Shown here piece after piece: positions 3,987 to 54,291 of a DNA stretch of 64,000 nucleotides. The DNA is from a virus. Numbering within the stretch: the stretch's first letter is position 1; every line of letters begins with the position of its first letter. The translations under genes and the position numbers were made by a program. Location: IMG/VR virus record IMGVR_UViG_3300021963_000055, positions 1-64,000 of that record; one strand, 5' to 3'. A model generated the notes under the pieces. The model had not been told where the DNA came from, made no database searches, and saw only the letters and a list, made by a program, of their open reading frames with translations.

Positions 3987-4060
3987 AGCCCAAGATCGGA
4001 CTTGAACCGATGGCCTACGCTTTACAAAAGCGTTGCTCTATCCAACTGAGCTACTCAGGC
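3987..4060 (-). tRNA. tRNA-Thr(UGU)
   Basis: Cloverleaf; anticodon arm ACGCT-TTTGTAA-AGCGT; GGTTCAAGTCC T-arm. Confidence 0.95.
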
Positions 4061-4323
4061 ATGTCTTCAGGATTTTCTAGATCAACTGGAAATAAACAAG
4101 GATGACATTCTTCATCAATCAAATAGAATGAAGTGCGGTACAAATCTTCAGGAGCATATTCCTGATTATTTGATGCATCTATTTGAACGTAAGGGTCATC
4201 CTGCATGATTTGAGGAATCTCTTCAAAAGTAAAAGGTACGTTGTTGATGAAATACATTTCCACAATTTCATTGTTGTAGTAACAATACTTTGAGGAAATT
4301 TTGTATTTCATAACTGTATCCAC
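4051..4323 (-). CDS. Hypothetical protein
   Basis: 90-aa acidic ORF; stop overlaps the tRNA-Thr 5' end. Confidence 0.7.
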   Translation of the reverse strand: MDTVMKYKISSKYCYYNNEIVEMYFINNVPFTFEEIPQIMQDDPYVQIDASNNQEYAPEDLYRTSFYLIDEECHPCLFPVDLENPEDMPE

Positions 4324-4345
4324 CGATACTGATATTTATCGGTAA

Positions 4346-4417
4346 CTGGCGTGGTAGGAATCGAACCTACAGTCCTACGATTAACAGTCGTTTGCATTAC
4401 CGTTATGCTACACGCCA
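4346..4417 (-). tRNA. tRNA-Asn(GUU)
   Basis: Cloverleaf; anticodon loop CTGTTAA. Confidence 0.93.
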
Positions 4418-4420
4418 TTG

Positions 4421-4601
4421 TGGTAGGTGGAGATAACGTTGCCTATGTTATCCCTCTTTACTTCATCCAGCCACAGAATACTAGACCAGCGAGAGGTTTT
4501 GGCACCTACAATTTTAAGGGCAAGAGTATCCACCTACGATAAAATCTACGATGTGGCCTAGGGGACTCTTTGTTTAATACAACGTTCCTTGTTGCACCCT
4601 T
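4421..4601 (-). ncRNA. Two candidate structured RNAs in the tRNA cluster
   Basis: Closing stems AAGGG/CCCTT (4516-4601) and GTAGGTG/CACCTAC (4421-4510), each with internal hairpins. Confidence 0.45.
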
Positions 4602-4640
4602 TACTACAGCATTCTGGTTTATCTTTCCAGTGCCATTAGT

Positions 4641-4713
4641 ACCTCTGGCTGGGAATCGAACCCAGTTTCCAAGTGCATTATCTGCCTGTCCTTACCAATA
4701 GACTAACAGAGGA
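4641..4713 (-). ncRNA. tRNA-like RNA with aberrant anticodon arm
   Basis: Acceptor CCTCTG/CAGAGG, D-loop with GG, T-arm CTGGG-TTCGATT-CCCAG, no canonical anticodon loop. Confidence 0.65.
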
Positions 4714-4717
4714 TATA

Positions 4718-4882
4718 CTAATTTTGCTGTAGAAGATATTCTACTGTATTTGCCACATCATTCATAGCATCACGAAGATTAGGACGTTGACCAGATTCTT
4801 GTTTGATAACTGGTCGGTGATCATCAGTTAGAGTCCACCTCCACTGTTTCATGTCTTTACAATACCAAAGATTAATCTTCAT
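4718..4882 (-). CDS. 54-aa hypothetical protein (MKINLWYCKDMKQWRWTLTDD...)
   Basis: Manual translation; overlaps the 3' end of the upstream ORF. Confidence 0.7.
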   Translation of the reverse strand: MKINLWYCKDMKQWRWTLTDDHRPVIKQESGQRPNLRDAMNDVANTVEYLLQQN

Positions 4883-5030
4883 GTTTATAATACTCTAGTT
4901 CAATCCAATTAAGGAGTGTTTGAAATGCATTAATAGATGCTTGAGTACAATTATCTTCTTTAAGTCGATGAATGTAAAACTCAAGAGCTTCAATGACCAT
5001 CTGACGGTCAGTTTGTGAAATAAGTGACAT
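4872..5030 (-). CDS. 52-aa hypothetical protein (MSLISQTDRQMVIEALEFY...)
   Basis: Manual translation with GAGG Shine-Dalgarno. Confidence 0.7.
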   Translation of the reverse strand: MSLISQTDRQMVIEALEFYIHRLKEDNCTQASINAFQTLLNWIELEYYKHED

Positions 5031-5052
5031 AGTAACCTCAATGTATGAGGGA

Positions 5053-5123
5053 AGCGGGAAACGGGGATCGAACCCGTGATTTCAACTTGGAAGGATGACG
5101 TGTTACCGCTACACCATTCCCGC
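5053..5123 (-). tRNA. tRNA-Gly(UCC)
   Basis: Cloverleaf; anticodon loop CTTCCAA. Confidence 0.93.
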
Positions 5124-5172
5124 AGTGACCCCTCTGTTTGAGCATCGTTGATAGGCTTGAGGGGTATTGAGT

Positions 5173-5424
5173 TTATTTATTAAATGTGATTACATCATCT
5201 TGGTAATAAGGTGTTGATGATGGAATTACTGTATCGCCTAGTTTAATTTCATATTTTGAACTAGTTTCTTGTGCTTTCTTCATTACAATAATGTAACCTA
5301 GCTTTTGTAAAGCTTCAGCAATAGAATGAAGAGTATAAGGATCTTCATGCATTGCACCTAGTTCAAGTGCAGAACGAAGTGCATGTTCAGCCTTTTCAAT
5401 TTGATACTTAACTGAATCGCCCAT
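5173..5424 (-). CDS. Hypothetical protein
   Basis: Start MGDSVKYQ chosen downstream of tRNA-Ala. Confidence 0.7.
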   Translation of the reverse strand: MGDSVKYQIEKAEHALRSALELGAMHEDPYTLHSIAEALQKLGYIIVMKKAQETSSKYEIKLGDTVIPSSTPYYQDDVITFNK

Positions 5425-5443
5425 GATAATTATATAGTGGGGA

Positions 5444-5516
5444 TGGAGAATAGCGGACTTGAACCGCTGACATCCTGCTTGCAAAGCAGGCGCTCTACCA
5501 ACTGAGCTAATTCCCC
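5444..5516 (-). tRNA. tRNA-Ala(UGC)
   Basis: Cloverleaf; CCTGC-TTTGCAA-GCAGG; G3:U70. Confidence 0.95.
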
Positions 5517-5635
5517 AGATGGATTAAGTGTGATATATCTCATAAGGATATATCAGGGACTTAATCTCTATCCGTATACTGACTTTGCAGTTCACCGACA
5601 ATTTACCGTCAGAATGGAAGTTCTGGAAACGGCAA

Positions 5636-5710
5636 TCGGGATGATAGGACTTGAACCTACGACTTCCGCTTCCCAAAAGCGGCGCTCTAGCCAAACTGAG
5701 CTACATCCCG
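5636..5710 (-). tRNA. tRNA-Pro(UGG)
   Basis: Cloverleaf; CCGCT-TTTGGGA-AGCGG. Confidence 0.95.
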
Positions 5711-5714
5711 TAGT

Positions 5715-5897
5715 GAATGGTGGGAGTCTGTCATACCCACAACCTGGAAGGTTACACTGACAACCGTATTTTCCAAGTACCTAGATTCTTCTTGGTCGGA
5801 AGTTCTATACCTTTGATTTCTCAACGATACAGCGGGCACCACCCCTAATCCGTTGCATTATCCCGTGAGTAACCACAAGGATTATTCTGCCACATTC
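5715..5897 (-). ncRNA. Candidate ~180-nt structured RNA between tRNA-Ile and tRNA-Pro
   Basis: Terminal pairing GAATG/CATTC, GAAA tetraloop hairpin, several further stems, no ORF of 60 aa or more. Confidence 0.5.
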
Positions 5898-5920
5898 TTT
5901 AGAGATCCGTCAACCTCTAA

Positions 5921-5991
5921 TAGGAACACTGGGAATTGAACCCAGACCAACCCGTTATAAGCAGGCCGCTCTACCATTAAGCTATGCTCCC
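5921..5991 (-). tRNA. tRNA-Ile(UAU)
   Basis: Cloverleaf; anticodon loop CTTATAA; discriminator A. Confidence 0.88.
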
Positions 5992-6000
5992 GAGACTAAA

Positions 6001-6255
6001 TTATCGAACTTCGTAATCTAGTCTACGTATTCGTCTTTTCGGCACATCAACTTGATCAATAACTTTGGGTTTTGGTTTTGGTTTCATAAATCCACTCACC
6101 ATTTCAACTTGGCTGATGTCTTGTCCTATTATAACAGGTAACCCATTGTTGTCAAGTCTTATGTATGTCTCATTAGGACACTTACATGACTGACCTCTAT
6201 TTGGTGTTGCTACCTGAAGTGTTGCATTGCAACATTTACATCTGATTGTGTACAT
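6001..6255 (-). CDS. Cys-rich (zinc ribbon) hypothetical protein
   Basis: RCKCC...SCKCPN; C-terminal RRLDYEVR. Confidence 0.75.
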   Translation of the reverse strand: MYTIRCKCCNATLQVATPNRGQSCKCPNETYIRLDNNGLPVIIGQDISQVEMVSGFMKPKPKPKVIDQVDVPKRRIRRLDYEVR

Positions 6256-6284
6256 TGTGTCATACCTTAAATATTCAGTTGTCA

Positions 6285-6358
6285 CGACTCAGGAGGGACT
6301 TGAACCCCCGACCAACTGCTTAGAAGGCAGATGCTCTATCCAACTGAGCTACTGAGTC
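6285..6358 (-). tRNA. tRNA-Arg(UCU)
   Basis: Cloverleaf; anticodon loop CTTCTAA. Confidence 0.95.
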
Positions 6359-6764
6359 ATTGATTTGATTTTACCATGTTCTCGGGGCAGTTGTCAACCC
6401 ATGGGGCACACAACCTCATTTCCCCTCCAAGTGCTCGACACTCATCAGTATAACACACATCAGTGTCAACTGGTTTCTCTGAGTATCGTGGTGGTGATAT
6501 TGTAACACGTCCTGTGTCACCTGTCAAGCGTTCATAATCTCTGATTGCTTTATCGACATCTCTCTTAACACGACGGTCAAGTAATGTCGGATCCTTTATT
6601 ATATAGTCGTTTAATTGACTCTTTGGAAAATATTTTCTTTGAACTTCGTCAATCAGGTCATACCAATGTACTGCATCAATCCCTGTGCATTTTGTAAGTA
6701 AACCTACTGATGAAGTAAGAATAACTCCTATGATAGCAAAATTTATAACTTGCTTTTTATTCAT
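6357..6764 (-). CDS. Hypothetical membrane-anchored protein
   Basis: N-terminal hydrophobic helix; Cys-rich C terminus. Confidence 0.7.
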   Translation of the reverse strand: MNKKQVINFAIIGVILTSSVGLLTKCTGIDAVHWYDLIDEVQRKYFPKSQLNDYIIKDPTLLDRRVKRDVDKAIRDYERLTGDTGRVTISPPRYSEKPVDTDVCYTDECRALGGEMRLCAPWVDNCPENMVKSNQ

Positions 6765-6801
6765 GAGAAAGGGGAGAACGAATCTCCCCATTATTTATCT
6801 G

Positions 6802-7164
6802 TTAAACTCTAGAGTAACAGATTCTCGCCACTCCCTGTCCAGGGTGAGCAATAGTAGAGAATGCCCCGTAGGACAGGTCGAGGTCTCGTCCTCCGACATA
6901 TGGACCTCTATCATTCACTCGCACAATAACTGACTTACCATTACTTTGATTTGTAACACGTAACCTAGTACCGAATGGAAGCCACCTATGTGCAACAGAT
7001 CGACCATATGCATTATATCTTTCACCGTTTGCGGTGGTTTGGCCGTGATATCCATCACCTACACCATAATGTGACGCCAGGGAACATCCGCTGGCAGCTT
7101 CAGCTTTTTGGGGCGTAAATCCAAGAAGTGTTGAAGCAATGAGAAGTGTTGAAATAAAACGCAT
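6802..7164 (-). CDS. rlpA: RlpA-like lytic transglycosylase (double-psi beta-barrel)
   Basis: Signal peptide; ASHYG..YHG.TTANGERY, AHRWLPFGT, VRVNDRGPY..GRDLDLS. Confidence 0.92.
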   Translation of the reverse strand: MRFISTLLIASTLLGFTPQKAEAASGCSLASHYGVGDGYHGQTTANGERYNAYGRSVAHRWLPFGTRLRVTNQSNGKSVIVRVNDRGPYVGGRDLDLSYGAFSTIAHPGQGVARICYSRV

Positions 7165-7283
7165 TTAAATTAATAGAACTCTACATCCCAATAGAAGGGG
7201 GGTACACCCACCTCTCGATGGGCACCTTCCTGGGCACAAAATGATAACACTCAACCGCATATAATAAAAATTGGTGTTATCAA

Positions 7284-7365
7284 TGGGTAGGGAGGGATTT
7301 GAACCCCCGTAGGCAGAGCCAACGGATTTACAGTCCGCCTCCATTAACCACTCGGACACCTACCC
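7284..7365 (-). tRNA. tRNA-Tyr(GUA)
   Basis: Type II cloverleaf with long variable arm; loop CTGTAAA. Confidence 0.95.
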
Positions 7366-49550: not shown

Positions 49551-51227
49551 TTACTTATATTCCCACATGTAAGCCATATCGCCATACTCATCAACATTCC
49601 ATTTACTATCAGTAGCAGAAGTCCAATAATCTCCTTTTGTATCTATAAAAGTAGTTTCATCATCAGTTAAGCCATCTAGTATAAAACCAAATGGAGCCAT
49701 ATCCTGTTCAATAGCCTCTCTTTGGTCTTCAAAAATTCTTTTTCTGACATCATTTGAAGTAAGCTCTCTAAAGTAAGGTTGAGTGGATAGCCAGGAAAAA
49801 ATCACAAGACACATGGCAAGGTCATCGTTACATCCTTCTTCTGCATTAAAGGTATCACTTTTTTGAATGAACGTAGTAAGCTCACTAATAATATCGTAAT
49901 CAGGAATCAATAATTTATCATCTTCAATCAATGCTTTCAGATTAGCACATCCATACTTTTTGACAGCTTTAGTCATCTTGACTCCTAACTGTGCTTTATT
50001 GGAAAACCCAGTGCCAACTAATTGTCCAGCACGACCTTTCATTGCACACATAAGCAAGTTATCATATTCAAGATCAAACTGAAGAATATCTGCCACTTGT
50101 CCTCCAATATCATTAACTTCAACAAGTACGTTAGCGTTGTTGTAATTTTTACCTACGGTATCAATAATATTAGGGAACAATATTGGTTTGATTTCGTTGT
50201 TTTTATATTTTGCTACTAATTTATATGGAATAGTAGTTACATCAATCACAGCAAATGCAGAGTAATCATTTCCAACTCCTCGTGCAACGTCAACAGTCAT
50301 AACATAGTCATGACCTTCTATTACGTCTTCATATACATCCAATCCACCACTTCTCTTTAGTGGATCTTCATAAACCATAGAACGAAGTTTATTTGGATTA
50401 ATGAGAGTATCAACAGATCCTAGGAAGGTACATTCAAATTCTTGCTCAAACTGTCGTTGAGAAGTGTTTGCAATAGTTTCTTCTTTCCATTTTTGGTCTC
50501 TACCTGGAACATCCCACCAATTAACTTCAAGTGGAGTGTAACTGTTTTTTCCTCGTTCTGCATCATGCCAAAACTTGTAGAACATGTTCATTCCATTTGG
50601 TGTGGAAATGATAATAACTTTAGTTGTCTTACCAGATGAAATGGTTGGATATACAGAGCTAAAGAACTGTTCTGCAATATGGTTTGGAATGAATGCAAAC
50701 TCATCCAAAAAGATGATGTTAAAAGAGTTCCCTCGGACAGCAGATGATGAGGTAGATGCAGCAATAATTTTAGATCCGTTCTCTAGCTCCAGTGAGCCAC
50801 GGTTCCAAGAACCCACGCCCTGCTGTAACCATTTGGGTAGATTTTCATAGGATAACTGCAATCTGGATAGAAGTTCCCTTGAGGTCTCTGCTTTATTTGC
50901 AAGAATAGCTATTTTTACGTTTGGGTTGAAAAGTGCATAGTGCAACAGGTAGGAAACCACAGTAGTTGATTTCCCTGTCTGTCTTGGAAGCTTTGCAATA
51001 TTGAATCTATGTTTATGAAAATTATCAATTAATCTTTCTTGAAATTCCCACATTTTAAAAGGTACTAGACCTTCATCAAGAGAAACAATTTTAATATACT
51101 TTTTGGCAAAGTAAATTGGGTCTTCTTGACACTTCAAATATTCTTCTAATTGTTCAGAAGTAAATTGTATTTGTACATTAGAAGGTTTTAGGTTGGGATT
51201 ACCCTTATAACTAGATTTATCACTCAT
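49551..51227 (-). CDS. gp17: Terminase large subunit
   Basis: PRQTGKST, FLDEFAF, ISTPNG, DDLAM. Confidence 0.98.
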   Translation of the reverse strand: MSDKSSYKGNPNLKPSNVQIQFTSEQLEEYLKCQEDPIYFAKKYIKIVSLDEGLVPFKMWEFQERLIDNFHKHRFNIAKLPRQTGKSTTVVSYLLHYALFNPNVKIAILANKAETSRELLSRLQLSYENLPKWLQQGVGSWNRGSLELENGSKIIAASTSSSAVRGNSFNIIFLDEFAFIPNHIAEQFFSSVYPTISSGKTTKVIIISTPNGMNMFYKFWHDAERGKNSYTPLEVNWWDVPGRDQKWKEETIANTSQRQFEQEFECTFLGSVDTLINPNKLRSMVYEDPLKRSGGLDVYEDVIEGHDYVMTVDVARGVGNDYSAFAVIDVTTIPYKLVAKYKNNEIKPILFPNIIDTVGKNYNNANVLVEVNDIGGQVADILQFDLEYDNLLMCAMKGRAGQLVGTGFSNKAQLGVKMTKAVKKYGCANLKALIEDDKLLIPDYDIISELTTFIQKSDTFNAEEGCNDDLAMCLVIFSWLSTQPYFRELTSNDVRKRIFEDQREAIEQDMAPFGFILDGLTDDETTFIDTKGDYWTSATDSKWNVDEYGDMAYMWEYK

Positions 51228-51242
51228 AATATTTTATTTAAA

Positions 51243-51464
51243 TTAACAATTCCAGGCTCTTAAAGATTTATTGATTCTGCTGTTTGGATCGTTGGCTGTT
51301 TTTGAACTAGTAAGTTTCTTTTTCATACCACTCATCCTGGCACAAAATGATGCCCTGCGAGGATTGCCTACCTTTTTTGAAGGTGCCTTGAGATCGCTTC
51401 CAGGATTTTCTTTTTCGTATGAGCGGCGTCCTTTTTCATTCAGTCCGCCGCTTGGGGCTTTCCC
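51243..51464 (-). CDS. -1 frame C-terminal extension (DUF6321-like) of the 51440-52504 ORF
   Basis: GKAPSGGLNEKGRRSYEKENPGSDLKAP...RRASFCARM...NSRINKSLRAWNC; no start codon near its 5' end; joined at slippery GGGAAAG. Confidence 0.75.
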   Translation of the reverse strand, partial: GKAPSGGLNEKGRRSYEKENPGSDLKAPSKKVGNPRRASFCARMSGMKKKLTSSKTANDPNSRINKSLRAWNC

Positions 51465-52504
51465 GATTTCTTAGTCCAAGCAGCTCCCTCAGTCTTTAAC
51501 TTTGGCTTTTTCCACTCAGGACCTTTTAGTTTTGATTTAGCTACAGAAGCTTCCCCTGCACTAGTAGTTCTATCTGCAAGATTTCTAATCTTTGCTTGCT
51601 TTTGAGCAGTTTTATGTCCAGGACCAATCTCAAAGCTTGCTTCTTTCATAAATTCAGAGAAAGATTTTGATTCCCCTCTAAGCTGACGATAATGTGCTTT
51701 CTTTTCTGCACCAGAAGAACTCTTTAACCATGGATCATCATGATCAATTGAAGATTTATTAACTTGAACAGTCTTTACTTTATTCTTTGCATATGATTTT
51801 CCACTACCATATACAACTTTAGTTTTTGTTGGTCTAGTTGATTGATAAACTCTTCCTCCGCTACCAGTACGACCAACTTCTACTCTTCCTTTTGCTTTAT
51901 CAATTAATCGTCTAATTAATCCTTCATCCAATTCTTCATCAGATGCAAGATATTCGGCAGCAGTATCTACAAAGTCCGCAGCTCTAGTAATTTTAGATTG
52001 TACCCATGCAGGTAGTTGCTGATTTGATTTACGAATAACTTTACGAAGCATAGCAATAGATCTTTCCATTTGATCTAATTCAAGTTTTGCCATGTAACCT
52101 TCATGGTCTTTAATCTTTCCTGAAGCTATCTCTTTATGGTCTTCTTGCATGTTGAGAAGACTAGTATTCATTTCCCATGCACTAGGTCCATATGAACACT
52201 CAGATTTTTTCTCTGGTTTTTCGCAAAGATGGCAATAACGAGTTTCTTCTTTCTCTTCTTTGACGGCTTTTTTACCGTTTCTCCATTCTCCCTTTAGTTT
52301 CTTTTCCATCTTGAGTAAGTGCTTGTAGTAATCTGGAAATTCTGCAATATGCTGAAGTGCGATATTGTACGCCTCATCATGCTTTGTAACATGCTCTCGT
52401 TCTACAGTAGATCCAATTTCAGCTTGCCTGATAACGTAATCTACTGAGACGCCATGTTTTTTAGCAATCTCCTTTTCAGTAGGAACTCTTTTGTGTGCCA
52501 TCAC
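51440..52504 (-). CDS. Modular putative head-internal protein (DUF5661-like N-terminus)
   Basis: G..VEREH......A..IALQHI.EFPDYY..L.KME; LPAWVQSKIT module; internal KSFSEFMKEA. Confidence 0.75.
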   Translation of the reverse strand: MMAHKRVPTEKEIAKKHGVSVDYVIRQAEIGSTVEREHVTKHDEAYNIALQHIAEFPDYYKHLLKMEKKLKGEWRNGKKAVKEEKEETRYCHLCEKPEKKSECSYGPSAWEMNTSLLNMQEDHKEIASGKIKDHEGYMAKLELDQMERSIAMLRKVIRKSNQQLPAWVQSKITRAADFVDTAAEYLASDEELDEGLIRRLIDKAKGRVEVGRTGSGGRVYQSTRPTKTKVVYGSGKSYAKNKVKTVQVNKSSIDHDDPWLKSSSGAEKKAHYRQLRGESKSFSEFMKEASFEIGPGHKTAQKQAKIRNLADRTTSAGEASVAKSKLKGPEWKKPKLKTEGAAWTKKSGKPQAAD

Positions 52505-53052
52505 CCACCTACAATCTGAACTTCAGTAATATGTCCTGTAGCAGCGCCATTGCCATCAGGCTTTACAGAAAATTTAATTGAATTTGAAAGAGTTGCAGTG
52601 TCAGTAAAATCTGCATATGCAGATGAATTTAATGCAACAGTAATTGAAGTATCTGTAACTGCAATAACTTCTAGGTGTGCAATGCCAGTATTGTACGCAG
52701 CAACTGAAGATCCAGTTAAAGTTACATAGTCTCCAACCGCAAAAGGATGTCCAGGAGTACCAGTATCAAGAGGAATATTCATCACTGTATTGGTTGCACC
52801 TTTAGTGATTGAAGTTATTCTTACTCTTTTTGGAGTAGCACACTTTACAATTTCAGAACTTTCTTTTGGGATATGAAAATCATTTCCATCTACTGCAGTT
52901 GGATTGCCACCCCATGCTACATGAATTGCATCACTAGCATCAGCAGTAAAACGATAAATTCCACTTCGTACAATTACTGCAGCGGACTGTGTAGCGTTAC
53001 CACCAGTACACGCCACCGCAGCAATATTTTGGACAACCTTAAGTACAGACAT
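52501..53052 (-). CDS. Hypothetical virion protein
   Basis: Beta-rich 183-aa ORF between gp16 and gp17. Confidence 0.7.
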   Translation of the reverse strand: MSVLKVVQNIAAVACTGGNATQSAAVIVRSGIYRFTADASDAIHVAWGGNPTAVDGNDFHIPKESSEIVKCATPKRVRITSITKGATNTVMNIPLDTGTPGHPFAVGDYVTLTGSSVAAYNTGIAHLEVIAVTDTSITVALNSSAYADFTDTATLSNSIKFSVKPDGNGAATGHITEVQIVGG

Positions 53053-53062
53053 TAAAATACTC

Positions 53063-53491
53063 CTATTCTTCTGTATTATTTATTTTTGATTGTTTTAGAA
53101 ACTTTTGTAGTTCTGCGGTGGAACCAACAAACATAGTATTATTTACAGTAGATGGACCTTTAGTTGGTTTATCTTCTTCAATATCTTTCATCTTTTTCTG
53201 AACTTCTATTAGTTTTTCTGCAAGCTCTGAAACATTTTTAATCCCTTGGAAAGCAACTTCATAAGCTCTTGGATGATCACTTTGAGAAGCTACATCTAAA
53301 ATTCCATCAATTGCTTTTTGTCCTTTTTGAATTAAATTGTATAGTTGACCTCTACTATATTTGTAATCTTTTTTTAGATCTTCTAAATCTGAATCTAAAA
53401 TAACTTCAAGTTCTGAAACTATTTCTGATGTGTCATTTGAGTTAGTTGGAACTATATCAAAAGTGTCATCTAATTTATCGTATGCTGACAT
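53063..53491 (-). CDS. gp16: Terminase small subunit
   Basis: DY.YSR.QLY.LI.KG, HPRAYEV, FVGSTAEL. Confidence 0.93.
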   Translation of the reverse strand: MSAYDKLDDTFDIVPTNSNDTSEIVSELEVILDSDLEDLKKDYKYSRGQLYNLIQKGQKAIDGILDVASQSDHPRAYEVAFQGIKNVSELAEKLIEVQKKMKDIEEDKPTKGPSTVNNTMFVGSTAELQKFLKQSKINNTEE

Positions 53492-53493
53492 AA

Positions 53494-54291
53494 TTATTGT
53501 GTCCAAAGTTCATTAAATCCAAAGTTATCGTCAGATTCAACTAATAAATCATCTGCAGAGTTAATTTTACCATCTTTATTTAAATCTGTTAGTGCCTTAG
53601 GAGTTACACTATAAGTAACATATCTATTTGCATTGATAGCAGTTCCAATATCAACGTTAACCTTTTTAATGACATCAGAAGTAGTAATAGGACCATAAAT
53701 ATATGACTTTGCAGTGAATGTTAAAGTATAAATAATTGTTCTTCTTTGTGTAAAATCACCTTCATAGTCATCTTGAATAGAAACATTATTCAGTAAAATT
53801 GGAATATCTCTTTTCTCATTTGTCTCTGCTACCATATTAATAGTAATTGAAAAATATGGCTGAAAGAATGGTAAAATTTGCTCTAAAATTTGAACGGCAT
53901 CATCATTATTCTTGCTGATGATTGCAACTTCAAAGTCTAGATTGTATGGCACTGGCAGATAATGAGAATATGTTTTTTCAGTATCTCCAGATTTTGGGGT
54001 TCTGCAGATTTGAGTAGGTCCAAGCTTTCTCGCAGCATCATAAGAAATTCCTTTCATCTCAAAAGAAATTCTGGGAAGCTGAATTTGTGTTGGTCGTCTC
54101 TTGTCTAAATCTGGCTCTGCTTCTATTCTAGCAAGAAATTTTTCTGTAGGTCCATATGCAAGAGGAACCTTAATTGTCTGCTTAACAACTCCGTCTTTGT
54201 CTTTACGTTGAAGTTCTATATTATTGAATAATGTACCAAATCCAACAATAGTTTTACGAATTGATTCGTTATAAAAATGTGTACCTAACAT
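53494..54291 (-). CDS. gp15: Tail terminator / sheath stabilizer
   Basis: FGTLFNNI, VPLAYGP..KFL, QILEQILPFFQP. Confidence 0.95.
   Translation of the reverse strand: MLGTHFYNESIRKTIVGFGTLFNNIELQRKDKDGVVKQTIKVPLAYGPTEKFLARIEAEPDLDKRRPTQIQLPRISFEMKGISYDAARKLGPTQICRTPKSGDTEKTYSHYLPVPYNLDFEVAIISKNNDDAVQILEQILPFFQPYFSITINMVAETNEKRDIPILLNNVSIQDDYEGDFTQRRTIIYTLTFTAKSYIYGPITTSDVIKKVNVDIGTAINANRYVTYSVTPKALTDLNKDGKINSADDLLVESDDNFGFNELWTQ

What the first reader, a model, noticed from the sequence alone, without database searches (positions are those of the whole stretch)
51243..51480. Likely programmed -1 ribosomal frameshift in the gene upstream of gp17
Seen: the 354-aa ORF ends ...AAWTKKSGKPQAAD*, in the middle of a recognisable domain whose remainder (APSGGLNEKGRRSY...RRASFCARM...SRINKSLRAWNC*) is in the -1 frame up to 51243. 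The junction is an in-phase X XXY YYZ heptamer, G GGA AAG (51464-51458), the same as the lambda G/GT site. A 5-nt spacer and a 7-bp GC stem, AGCGGCG/CGCCGCT, follow, built from GC-rich codons unusual for this genome. Predicted products are 354 aa and about 420 aa. Known phage frameshifts mostly concern tail chaperones or capsid/tail extensions; here it would set the dose of the last module of a putative head polyprotein. A single-base deletion (sequencing error or mutation) is the alternative.
Basis: partly seen in the sequence, partly recalled or inferred. Interest (0 to 1): 0.85.

Follow-up and report, generated by a model that had tools for sequence, protein, structure and literature searches.

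The report
Conserved -1 frameshift adding DUF6321 domain
A gene of unknown function just upstream of the large terminase gene in an uncultured T4-like, cyanophage-type virus very probably makes two proteins, a short one and a longer one carrying a conserved 71-residue end domain, because some ribosomes slip back one base at a textbook slippery site that several distant relatives also keep.

Summary
The 354-aa ORF (51440-52504, minus strand; more likely 353 aa from the ATG at 52501) stops five codons after an in-phase G GGA AAG (51464-51458). A complete DUF6321 domain follows in the -1 frame to 51243. A 5-nt spacer and a 7-bp GC stem lie downstream, built from codons used for 2-10% of their amino acids here.

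It is not an error. Six other distinct contigs and four protein clusters from other assemblies have the same shifted layout. All seven DNA copies share the identical heptamer, the spacer length, the stem (only G-C to G-U changes or a one-base register shift) and a 0-frame stop five codons on. Their terminases are only 68-95% identical. The -1 ORF is intact in all seven and under purifying selection (pN/pS 0.04-0.24 at pS 0.41-0.62). Of 141 distinct in-frame homologues, one has the heptamer and none has the stem.

In the window and in L205 the -1 frame opens only two codons before the site and has no start codon.

"Head polyprotein" is unsupported; the function is unknown. The mechanism is canonical and the gene context is new. 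I found no paper on it. This scan has noted GGGAAAG frameshifts in other phage genes, not in this family.

The parts
51440..52504 (-). 0-frame ORF (354 aa from GTG 52504; likelier 353 aa from ATG 52501). This is the short product, ending ...SGKPQAAD*.
52298..52474 (-). DUF5661 domain (residues 11-69 of the 354-aa ORF)
   Evidence: PF18905, E 7e-13
51471..51473 (-). TAA stop in the -1 frame, two codons before the slip site. It closes the -1 frame upstream, so the domain has no start codon of its own.
51458..51464 (-). Slippery heptamer G GGA AAG in X XXY YYZ phase
   Evidence: Identical in 7 of 7 shifted copies against 1 of 141 in-frame homologues.
51453..51457 (-). 5-nt spacer (CCCCA here; CAGCA or CACCA in relatives)
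51446..51452 (-). 5' arm of the stimulatory stem (AGCGGCG)
51429..51445 (-). 17-nt loop, containing the 0-frame stop TGA at 51442-51440
51422..51428 (-). 3' arm of the stem (CGCCGCT)
51243..51464 (-). -1 frame ORF of 73 codons plus stop, holding a complete DUF6321 domain. After the shared GK, 71 residues are added to the long product (419/420 aa).
   Evidence: PF19846, 1-72 of 72, E 5e-24; intact and under purifying selection in all 7 shifted copies
49551..51227 (-). Large terminase subunit (gp17), immediately downstream. The same synteny holds in the five shifted loci that contain terL; L210 shows no terL hit in the roughly 930 nt of sequence held downstream.
52501..53052 (-). DUF7243 gene upstream; its stop overlaps the ATG of the frameshift gene
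53063..53506 (-). Small terminase subunit (gp16)
   Evidence: phrog_445, E 1e-51

Best explanation
This is a programmed -1 ribosomal frameshift. Ribosomes translating the DUF5661 gene reach G GGA AAG (Gly-Lys). A GC-rich hairpin starting 5 nt downstream sits at the mRNA entrance and slows translocation. The Gly and Lys tRNAs re-pair one base back, on GGG and AAA. Ribosomes that slip then read GCC CCA AGC... and add a 71-residue DUF6321 domain, giving a long product of 419/420 aa. Ribosomes that do not slip unwind the 5' arm and stop five codons later at the TGA in the loop, giving a short product of 353/354 aa.

Shown here: the signal, its conservation, selection on the -1 frame, and the lack of an independent start in the window. 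Inferred: that slippage occurs, its efficiency (unknown; the stable stem suggests a few percent to tens of percent), and the purpose.

The likely purpose is to set the ratio of domain-bearing to domain-free protein. DUF6321 is a very conserved, basic, helical module. It sits at the extreme C-terminus of more than 2,000 otherwise very variable protein clusters, which suggests it binds a conserved partner. Natural relatives exist with the domain permanently fused and with it deleted, so both forms appear viable.
For: (1) The signal is present and in phase and the hairpin is significant.

(2) The same shifted layout occurs in L204/L208, L205, L206, L207, L209 and L210 and in protein clusters P0005, P0009, P0042 and P0044, which end SGK-x-QAA-x*. 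The window's exact 353-aa product is on 4 contigs held by JGI, Logan and ENA.

(3) All 7 copies have GGGAAAG, a 5-nt spacer, the stem and a 0-frame stop 5 codons on. The preceding codon is TCG or GCG, so the X position stays G.

(4) The -1 ORF is 73 codons and intact in all 7. Pairwise pS is 0.41-0.62, pN 0.02-0.12 and pN/pS 0.04-0.24, leaving out the near-identical pair L204/L206.

(5) Signal codons are invariant in 5 of 6 cases, and the sixth change (CGC to CGT) keeps a G-U pair. Other conserved-residue codons are invariant in 12 of 53 cases; Fisher p = 0.006.

(6) Controls from 141 distinct in-frame homologues: 1 has the heptamer, 0 have the stem (at most 6 of 7 positions paired, mostly 1-4), and the 50-nt MFE averages -6.5 against -14 to -20.7 kcal/mol for the shifted copies.

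(7) In the window and in L205 the -1 frame opens only 2 codons before the site and has no start codon.

(8) Synteny next to terL is kept while TerL identity falls to 68%.

(9) G_GGA_AAG is documented as highly shift-prone in E. coli (PMC5009743).
Against: There is no experimental evidence for two products. The stem has no compensatory double substitutions, only one-sided G-C to G-U changes, so the covariation tests are uninformative. On a tree of the domain with the signal codons removed, the shifted copies fall in one broad clade. A single origin is therefore likely, and the Fisher-type contrasts overstate independence. The host, and so its tRNA-Lys repertoire, is unknown. L207 and L209 have an SD-like sequence plus an ATG in the -1 frame 4 codons upstream, so a free domain could also be made there.
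Confidence: 0.87

Rival explanations
1. A sequencing or assembly error (loss of one base in the G3A3 run) in a metagenomic contig; the real gene is in frame.
For: The record is an uncultured viral contig. About 40 IMG/VR relatives and all cultured cyanophages inspected are in frame. A deletion in GGGAAAAG would create this heptamer automatically.
Against: The same shift is found in 6 other distinct contigs and 4 protein clusters from other assemblies, with about 50% synonymous divergence. The exact product is on 4 contigs in three sources. None of the 141 in-frame homologues has GGGAAAA at this site, so no in-frame parent population is visible. The rare-codon stem is unexplained by an error.
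Confidence: 0.02
2. A real but non-programmed indel. The DUF6321 part is a dead remnant, or is rescued only at background level, and the short protein is the functional product.
For: Relatives that lack the domain altogether are common (P0006, P0010, P0016, P0018; P0001 ends AAWNC*, a clean deletion), so the short form is viable.
Against: A remnant would accumulate stops and non-synonymous changes. Instead all 7 copies keep 73 open codons with pN/pS 0.04-0.24 at pS of about 0.5. The heptamer and stem are kept at synonymous sites.
Confidence: 0.04
3. The domain is made as a separate small protein by internal initiation or coupling in the -1 frame, not by frameshifting.
For: L207 and L209 have AAGGAAGGAG followed by an ATG 4 codons before the GK. 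L204, L206 and L210 have a TTG there. A few stand-alone-sized DUF6321 proteins (105-140 aa) exist.
Against: In the window and in L205 that TTG is followed two codons later by a TAA, and no start lies between the stop and the domain. The ATG or TTG comes from the Ala-Trp codons (GCA TGG or GCT TGG), which in-frame homologues also carry. This reading does not explain the invariant heptamer, spacer and stem. DUF6321 is almost always the C-terminal end of a larger protein.
Confidence: 0.05
4. Transcriptional slippage, or phase variation by slipped-strand mispairing at the G3A3 run, restores the frame in a subpopulation of mRNAs or genomes.
For: The site is made of two short homopolymers.
Against: Productive polymerase slippage in bacteria is described on runs of about 9 A or T (PMC5009743), whereas the runs here are 3 nt. 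No in-frame siblings with GGGAAAAG or GGGGAAAG were found among the 141 homologues. A conserved hairpin 5 nt downstream is the hallmark of ribosomal frameshifting, not polymerase slippage.
Confidence: 0.02

Closest known systems
Phage lambda G/GT tail-assembly-chaperone -1 frameshift
   Same: It uses the identical heptamer G GGA AAG. A minority long product is made of the whole short protein (minus a few residues) plus a C-terminal extension. The two ORFs overlap near the end of the first.
   Different: The gene, position and protein family all differ: this gene lies between terS and terL, not between the tail tube and tape measure genes, and carries DUF5661 and DUF6321. A strong GC hairpin follows at 5 nt here. 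From my own knowledge, the lambda site is not described as depending on such a 3' structure.
E. coli dnaX (tau/gamma) -1 frameshift
   Same: It is a bacterial-type cassette with a slippery heptamer ending in AAG and a simple stem-loop about 5-6 nt downstream, giving two isoforms that differ by C-terminal domains. PMC5009743 notes dnaX variants in which the longer product is the frameshift product and the 0-frame stop follows the site directly, as here.
   Different: The dnaX heptamer is A AAA AAG, and it has an upstream Shine-Dalgarno-like stimulator. No conserved upstream stimulator was found here: the purine-rich stretch 19-24 nt upstream is also present in in-frame homologues.
Capsid-gene -1 frameshifts that add C-terminal domains (T7 gene 10A/10B; phiEco32-like capsid plus Ig domains)
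   Same: A structural-module gene gains an extra C-terminal domain in a fraction of its copies.
   Different: This protein has no homology to capsid proteins and no evidence of being a virion component.
In-frame DUF5661/DUF6321 proteins of Kyanoviridae (for example S-RIM2 SWUG_00084, Bellamy gp123, S-H38 QPB07978)
   Same: They share the domains, the position upstream of or near terL, and the junction sequence ...AAW(T/Q)(K/R)K(S/E)G(K/Q)-xxx-GGLNEKGR...
   Different: They are single ORFs with varied codons at the junction, and have neither the slippery heptamer nor the stem.

Membership tests
Canonical -1 programmed ribosomal frameshift cassette | X XXY YYZ heptamer in phase with the upstream ORF | tested here: met
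   G GGA AAG at 51464-51458. It is identical in all 7 shifted copies.
Canonical -1 programmed ribosomal frameshift cassette | Stable 3' RNA structure about 5-9 nt downstream | tested here: met
   A 7-8 bp GC stem follows a 5-nt spacer; -21.1 kcal/mol, z = -3.5. The consensus stem is kept in 7 of 7 copies and is absent from 141 in-frame homologues. There are no compensatory double changes.
Canonical -1 programmed ribosomal frameshift cassette | -1 ORF encodes a functional, selected polypeptide with no start of its own | tested here: met
   The -1 ORF holds a full DUF6321 domain. pN/pS is 0.04-0.24. There is no start codon in the window or in L205. In L207 and L209 a possible start does exist.
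Canonical -1 programmed ribosomal frameshift cassette | Layout conserved in diverged relatives | tested here: met
   Six other contigs and four protein clusters share it, with TerL identity 68-95%.
Canonical -1 programmed ribosomal frameshift cassette | Two products demonstrated, dependent on the heptamer and the structure | not testable with these tools
   This needs a reporter assay, western blot or mass spectrometry.
Lambda-type G/GT tail assembly chaperone | Gene pair between the major tail and tape measure genes, with homology to gpG/gpT | tested here: not met
   The gene lies between terS/DUF7243 and terL. The only Pfam hits are DUF5661 and DUF6321.
Capsid (head) protein or head polyprotein | Sequence or fold similarity to capsid, scaffold, protease or decoration proteins | tested here: inconclusive
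   Pfam, PHROG and PDB sequence searches gave no such hit. The DUF6321 model has no fold match above Z 3.5. The N-part model is too poor to search (pLDDT 48.9).
DUF6321 (PF19846) | Full-length match above the gathering score, at the protein's C-terminus | tested here: met
   85.1 bits against a cut-off of 28.5, profile positions 1-72 of 72. The match is C-terminal only if the frameshift product is made.
DUF5661 (PF18905) | Match above the gathering score | tested here: met
   49.1 bits against a cut-off of 27, residues 11-69.

The most novel reading that the evidence does not exclude
DUF6321 is a conserved anchoring module that ties hypervariable cargo proteins to an invariant partner of the packaging or virion machinery of cyanophage-type T4-like viruses. 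In one lineage, a -1 frameshift has replaced the all-or-none states (domain fused, domain deleted) with a fixed ratio of anchored to free protein. As far as I could find, it would be the first programmed -1 frameshift in the packaging/structural module of a T4-like phage, and a natural series showing how recoding evolves from an in-frame domain junction.
Probability: 0.3. Interest if true: 0.7.

Novelty: new member of a known kind. Interest (0 to 1): 0.58.

Why it matters
The finding adds a well-supported recoding site outside the usual phage contexts (tail chaperones, capsid extensions, transposases, dnaX), in a virus group where I found none described. Gene callers split or truncate this gene: the collection holds the 0-frame product of 353 aa, so the DUF6321 part goes unannotated in these genomes.

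The family offers three natural states of the same junction: fused, deleted and frameshifted. The signal codons can be compared directly with about 140 in-frame homologues that lack them. That makes a clean system for studying how a slippery site and its stimulator arise. It also marks DUF6321, found in more than 2,000 protein clusters, as a module whose dose matters. Because the mechanism is canonical and the protein's function is unknown, the wider importance is moderate.

Tried and rejected
- An exact-cassette search in IMG/VR found nothing. A degenerate pattern that fixes only the flanking residues was needed.
The DNA behind P0005, P0009 and P0042 could therefore not be read, and only their truncated tails are known.
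- tblastn of P0009 against GenBank phages found no close record. No cultured phage with the shift was seen; the top cassette hits align 85 nt to the window's 84.
- Covariation: there are no double compensatory changes, and the shuffle control is uninformative.
- RNAalifold also paired the heptamer with a downstream UCCUG. I reject this as incidental: it is Asn-Pro-Gly coding sequence and is broken in L207.
- Rfam gave no relevant family.
- Function: the Atlas returned only its own family. PDB sequence searches were empty. The DUF6321 AF2 model is a small four-helix domain (pLDDT 78.6) with no fold match (Foldseek E 7; best VIA Z 3.5). The AF2 model of the 354-aa part is unusable (pLDDT 48.9).
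- Large DUF6321 proteins carry only further DUFs, plus one weak sub-threshold Zn_peptidase_2 hit in P0213 (23.9 bits against a cut-off of 27).
- Literature searches for DUF6321, DUF5661 and cyanophage frameshifting gave nothing relevant.
- No psbA is present in the 105-kb record, so the host is unassigned.
- An upstream SD-like stimulator was considered and rejected. The GAGGGAG lies 19 nt upstream, encodes the conserved E-G, and is shared with in-frame homologues.

Full report
**What is there.** On the minus strand the window carries gp15, terS (53063-53506), a DUF7243 gene (52501-53052), the ORF in question (51440-52504), terL (49551-51227) and the tail sheath gene.
- TerL is at most 76% identical to cultured Kyanoviridae, with Synechococcus phage S-CREM1 the closest.
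- The record is a 104,877-bp uncultured viral contig, estimated 57% complete.
- The ORF has an N-terminal DUF5661 and ends ...AAWTKKSGKPQAAD*.
- The -1 frame from 51464 to 51243 encodes a complete DUF6321 (Pfam positions 1-72 of 72, E 5e-24).
- The junction is G GGA AAG in X XXY YYZ phase, followed by a 5-nt spacer, a 7-bp stem AGCGGCG/CGCCGCT and a 17-nt loop containing the 0-frame TGA.
- The 65 nt from the heptamer fold at -21.1 kcal/mol, z = -3.5, and 0 of 200 shuffles fold as well.
- The window is 35.5% G+C. The codons that make the signal are rare: TCG 2.0%, AGC 5.9%, GGC 10.2%, CGC 5.4%.

The only corrections are that the break lies at the N-terminal edge of the Pfam domain, and that the start is more likely the ATG at 52501.

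**Relatives.** I found three kinds.
- In frame. A scan of IMG/VR with the 354-aa product gave 79 loci. Wherever both parts are present they are in one frame, reading ...SGK-xxx-GGLNEKGR..., with varied codons. Cultured cyanophages (S-RIM2, Bellamy, S-H38) are also in frame.
- Domain absent. Several close relatives end before the domain (...KKPKLK*). P0001, 91% identical, ends ...AAWNC*, a clean deletion of the domain.
- Shifted, like the window. Protein clusters P0005, P0009, P0042 and P0044 (267-350 aa, 76-80% identical over the aligned part) end SGK-x-QAA-x*. A degenerate DNA pattern fixing only the flanking residues, with an 8-nt instead of a 9-nt gap, found L204-L207 in IMG/VR and L208-L210 in metagenomes; L208 is the same contig as L204.

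**The shifted copies share the signal, not just the shift.**
- All seven distinct DNA copies have GGGAAAG.
- The preceding codon is TCG in six copies and GCG in L210, so the first X stays G even where the residue changes.
- The spacer is always 5 nt (CCCCA, CAGCA or CACCA).
- The stem arms are the same in five copies, L205 adding an eighth G-C pair. L209 has one G-C to G-U change. L210 loses the basal A-U pair, gains a G-C pair at the top, and has one G-U.
- The 0-frame stop (TGA or TAA) is always five codons after the site.
- The N-terminal proteins differ greatly: 268, 269, 354, 517 and 596 aa, with shuffled modules. TerL identity to the window runs from 95% down to 68%. The gene is immediately upstream of terL in the five shifted loci that contain terL; L210 shows no terL hit in the roughly 930 nt held downstream.

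**The -1 frame is translated.**
- In all seven copies the -1 ORF is 73 open codons ending ...AWNC*.
- Pairwise synonymous divergence is 0.41-0.62, non-synonymous divergence 0.02-0.12, and pN/pS 0.04-0.24, leaving out the near-identical pair L204/L206. A dead remnant would not look like this.
- In the window and in L205 the -1 frame opens only two codons before GGG and has no start codon. L204, L206 and L210 have a TTG, and L207 and L209 an ATG with an SD-like sequence, four codons upstream.
- These come from the Ala-Trp codons, which in-frame homologues also have. They are not conserved. Internal initiation cannot be the common mechanism, although it might add free domain in some lineages.

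**The signal is under its own constraint.** I looked at codons whose residue is conserved in six non-redundant shifted copies. The six codons forming the heptamer and the stem arms are invariant in five cases, and the sixth varies only CGC/CGT, which keeps a G-U pair. The other codons are invariant in 12 of 53 cases (Fisher p = 0.006).

**Controls.** These use 141 distinct in-frame homologues.
- One has GGGAAAG and none has GGGAAAA.
- At the seven stem positions at most six pair, and usually one to four.
- The 50 nt after the heptamer fold at a mean of -6.5 kcal/mol (minimum -13.5), against -14.0 to -20.7 for the shifted copies. No in-frame sequence reaches the weakest shifted one.

**Caveats.**
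- The stem shows no double compensatory substitutions, so the formal covariation measures say nothing.
- On a tree of codons 16-73 the shifted copies lie in one broad clade together with some in-frame sequences. A single origin is likely, and the contrasts above are not seven independent events.
- What remains robust is long persistence after that origin: the ORF stays intact under selection at near-saturated synonymous divergence, and the signal is preserved.

**Error and mutation alternatives.** An assembly error is excluded by the independent contigs and clusters, and by the window's exact 353-aa product occurring on four contigs in JGI, Logan and ENA holdings. Some of those may be re-assemblies of the same reads, and raw reads could not be inspected. 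Phase variation or transcriptional slippage is unlikely on 3-nt runs. No in-frame sibling with an extra G or A was seen. Polymerase slippage is described on runs of about nine (PMC5009743).

**Mechanism.** Canonical tandem slippage is the best reading. GGA in the P site re-pairs with GGG and AAG in the A site re-pairs with AAA, stimulated by the hairpin 5 nt downstream. G_GGA_AAG is listed as highly shift-prone in E. coli (PMC5009743). The products would be 353/354 aa and 419/420 aa. Efficiency cannot be inferred.

**Function.** Function is unknown, and the 'head polyprotein' label has no support.
- DUF6321 matches 2,044 representative clusters and sits almost always at the extreme C-terminus of proteins of 105 to more than 1,200 aa. 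Their remaining sequence is very variable while the domain stays 84-95% identical in all but two of the 150 best hits.
- Its AF2 model is a small four-helix domain (pLDDT 78.6) with no fold or sequence relative in the PDB.
- The N-terminal part models poorly and has only DUF matches.
- The terS-terL interval is a variable region in cultured cyanomyoviruses, holding accessory genes.

That a very conserved C-terminal module rides on variable proteins suggests partner binding. This is inference only.

**Comparison with what is known.** The cassette works like lambda G/GT (same heptamer, long minority fusion) and like dnaX (stem-loop at 5-6 nt). It is not a member of those gene families.
- I found no paper on DUF6321 or DUF5661, and none reporting a frameshift in cyanophages. 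The large recoding review mentions neither cyanophages nor T4-like phages in the 300,000 characters held.
- Notes of this scan record GGGAAAG frameshifts in other phage genes on other DNA, and two first-reader notes on this same stretch. None concerns this family elsewhere.

**Verdict.** This is a real, conserved, very probably programmed -1 frameshift. It is a new member of a known kind, in a gene of unknown function.

Noticed in passing
window 3987-7365 (-): There is a cluster of nine tRNA genes: Thr-UGU, Asn-GUU, His (called with anticodon ATG, which is odd), Gly-UCC, Ala-UGC, Pro-UGG, Ile-UAU, Arg-UCU and Tyr-GUA. tRNA-Gly(UCC) at 5053-5123 reads GGA, the P-site codon of the slippery heptamer, and could also pair with GGG after the slip. 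No tRNA-Lys is encoded.
   Followed up: no
P0001 (343 aa, 91% identical to the window's ORF): It ends ...NTEGAAWNC*. The DUF6321 domain has been removed cleanly, apparently by deletion between the AAW that precedes the domain and the AW of its last residues (AWNC).
   Followed up: partly
L204, L206, L210 against window 51440-52504: The proteins that carry the frameshift cassette are mosaics. The DUF5661 module and the EDHKEIASGK...QLPAWVQSKITRAADF module occur in different orders and numbers, alongside Cys-rich and basic low-complexity stretches. Protein lengths run from 268 to 596 aa.
   Followed up: partly
L207:2067-2168(-) and L209:1439-1540(-): An SD-like AAGGAAGGAG followed by an ATG lies in the -1 frame four codons before the slip site. 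In these two lineages a free 77-residue DUF6321 protein could be initiated as well.
   Followed up: partly
window 52499-52504 (-): The DUF7243 gene's stop TGA overlaps the ATG of the frameshift gene (TGATG), which suggests translational coupling. The GTG one codon upstream, which ORF listing takes as the start, is probably not used.
   Followed up: partly
L118 (in-frame homologue): This is the only one of the 141 in-frame homologues with TCG GGA AAG at the junction. It has no downstream stem, so it may be a natural control, or a precursor state, for the slippery site alone.
   Followed up: no
L211 951-1475 (S-CREM1 SCREM1_176): The gene in the position of the window's DUF7243 gene in S-CREM1 is annotated 'ubiquitin-like modifier-activating enzyme'. 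Pfam and PHROG give the window's own gene only DUF7243 and unknown function. I did not compare the two genes directly.
   Followed up: no
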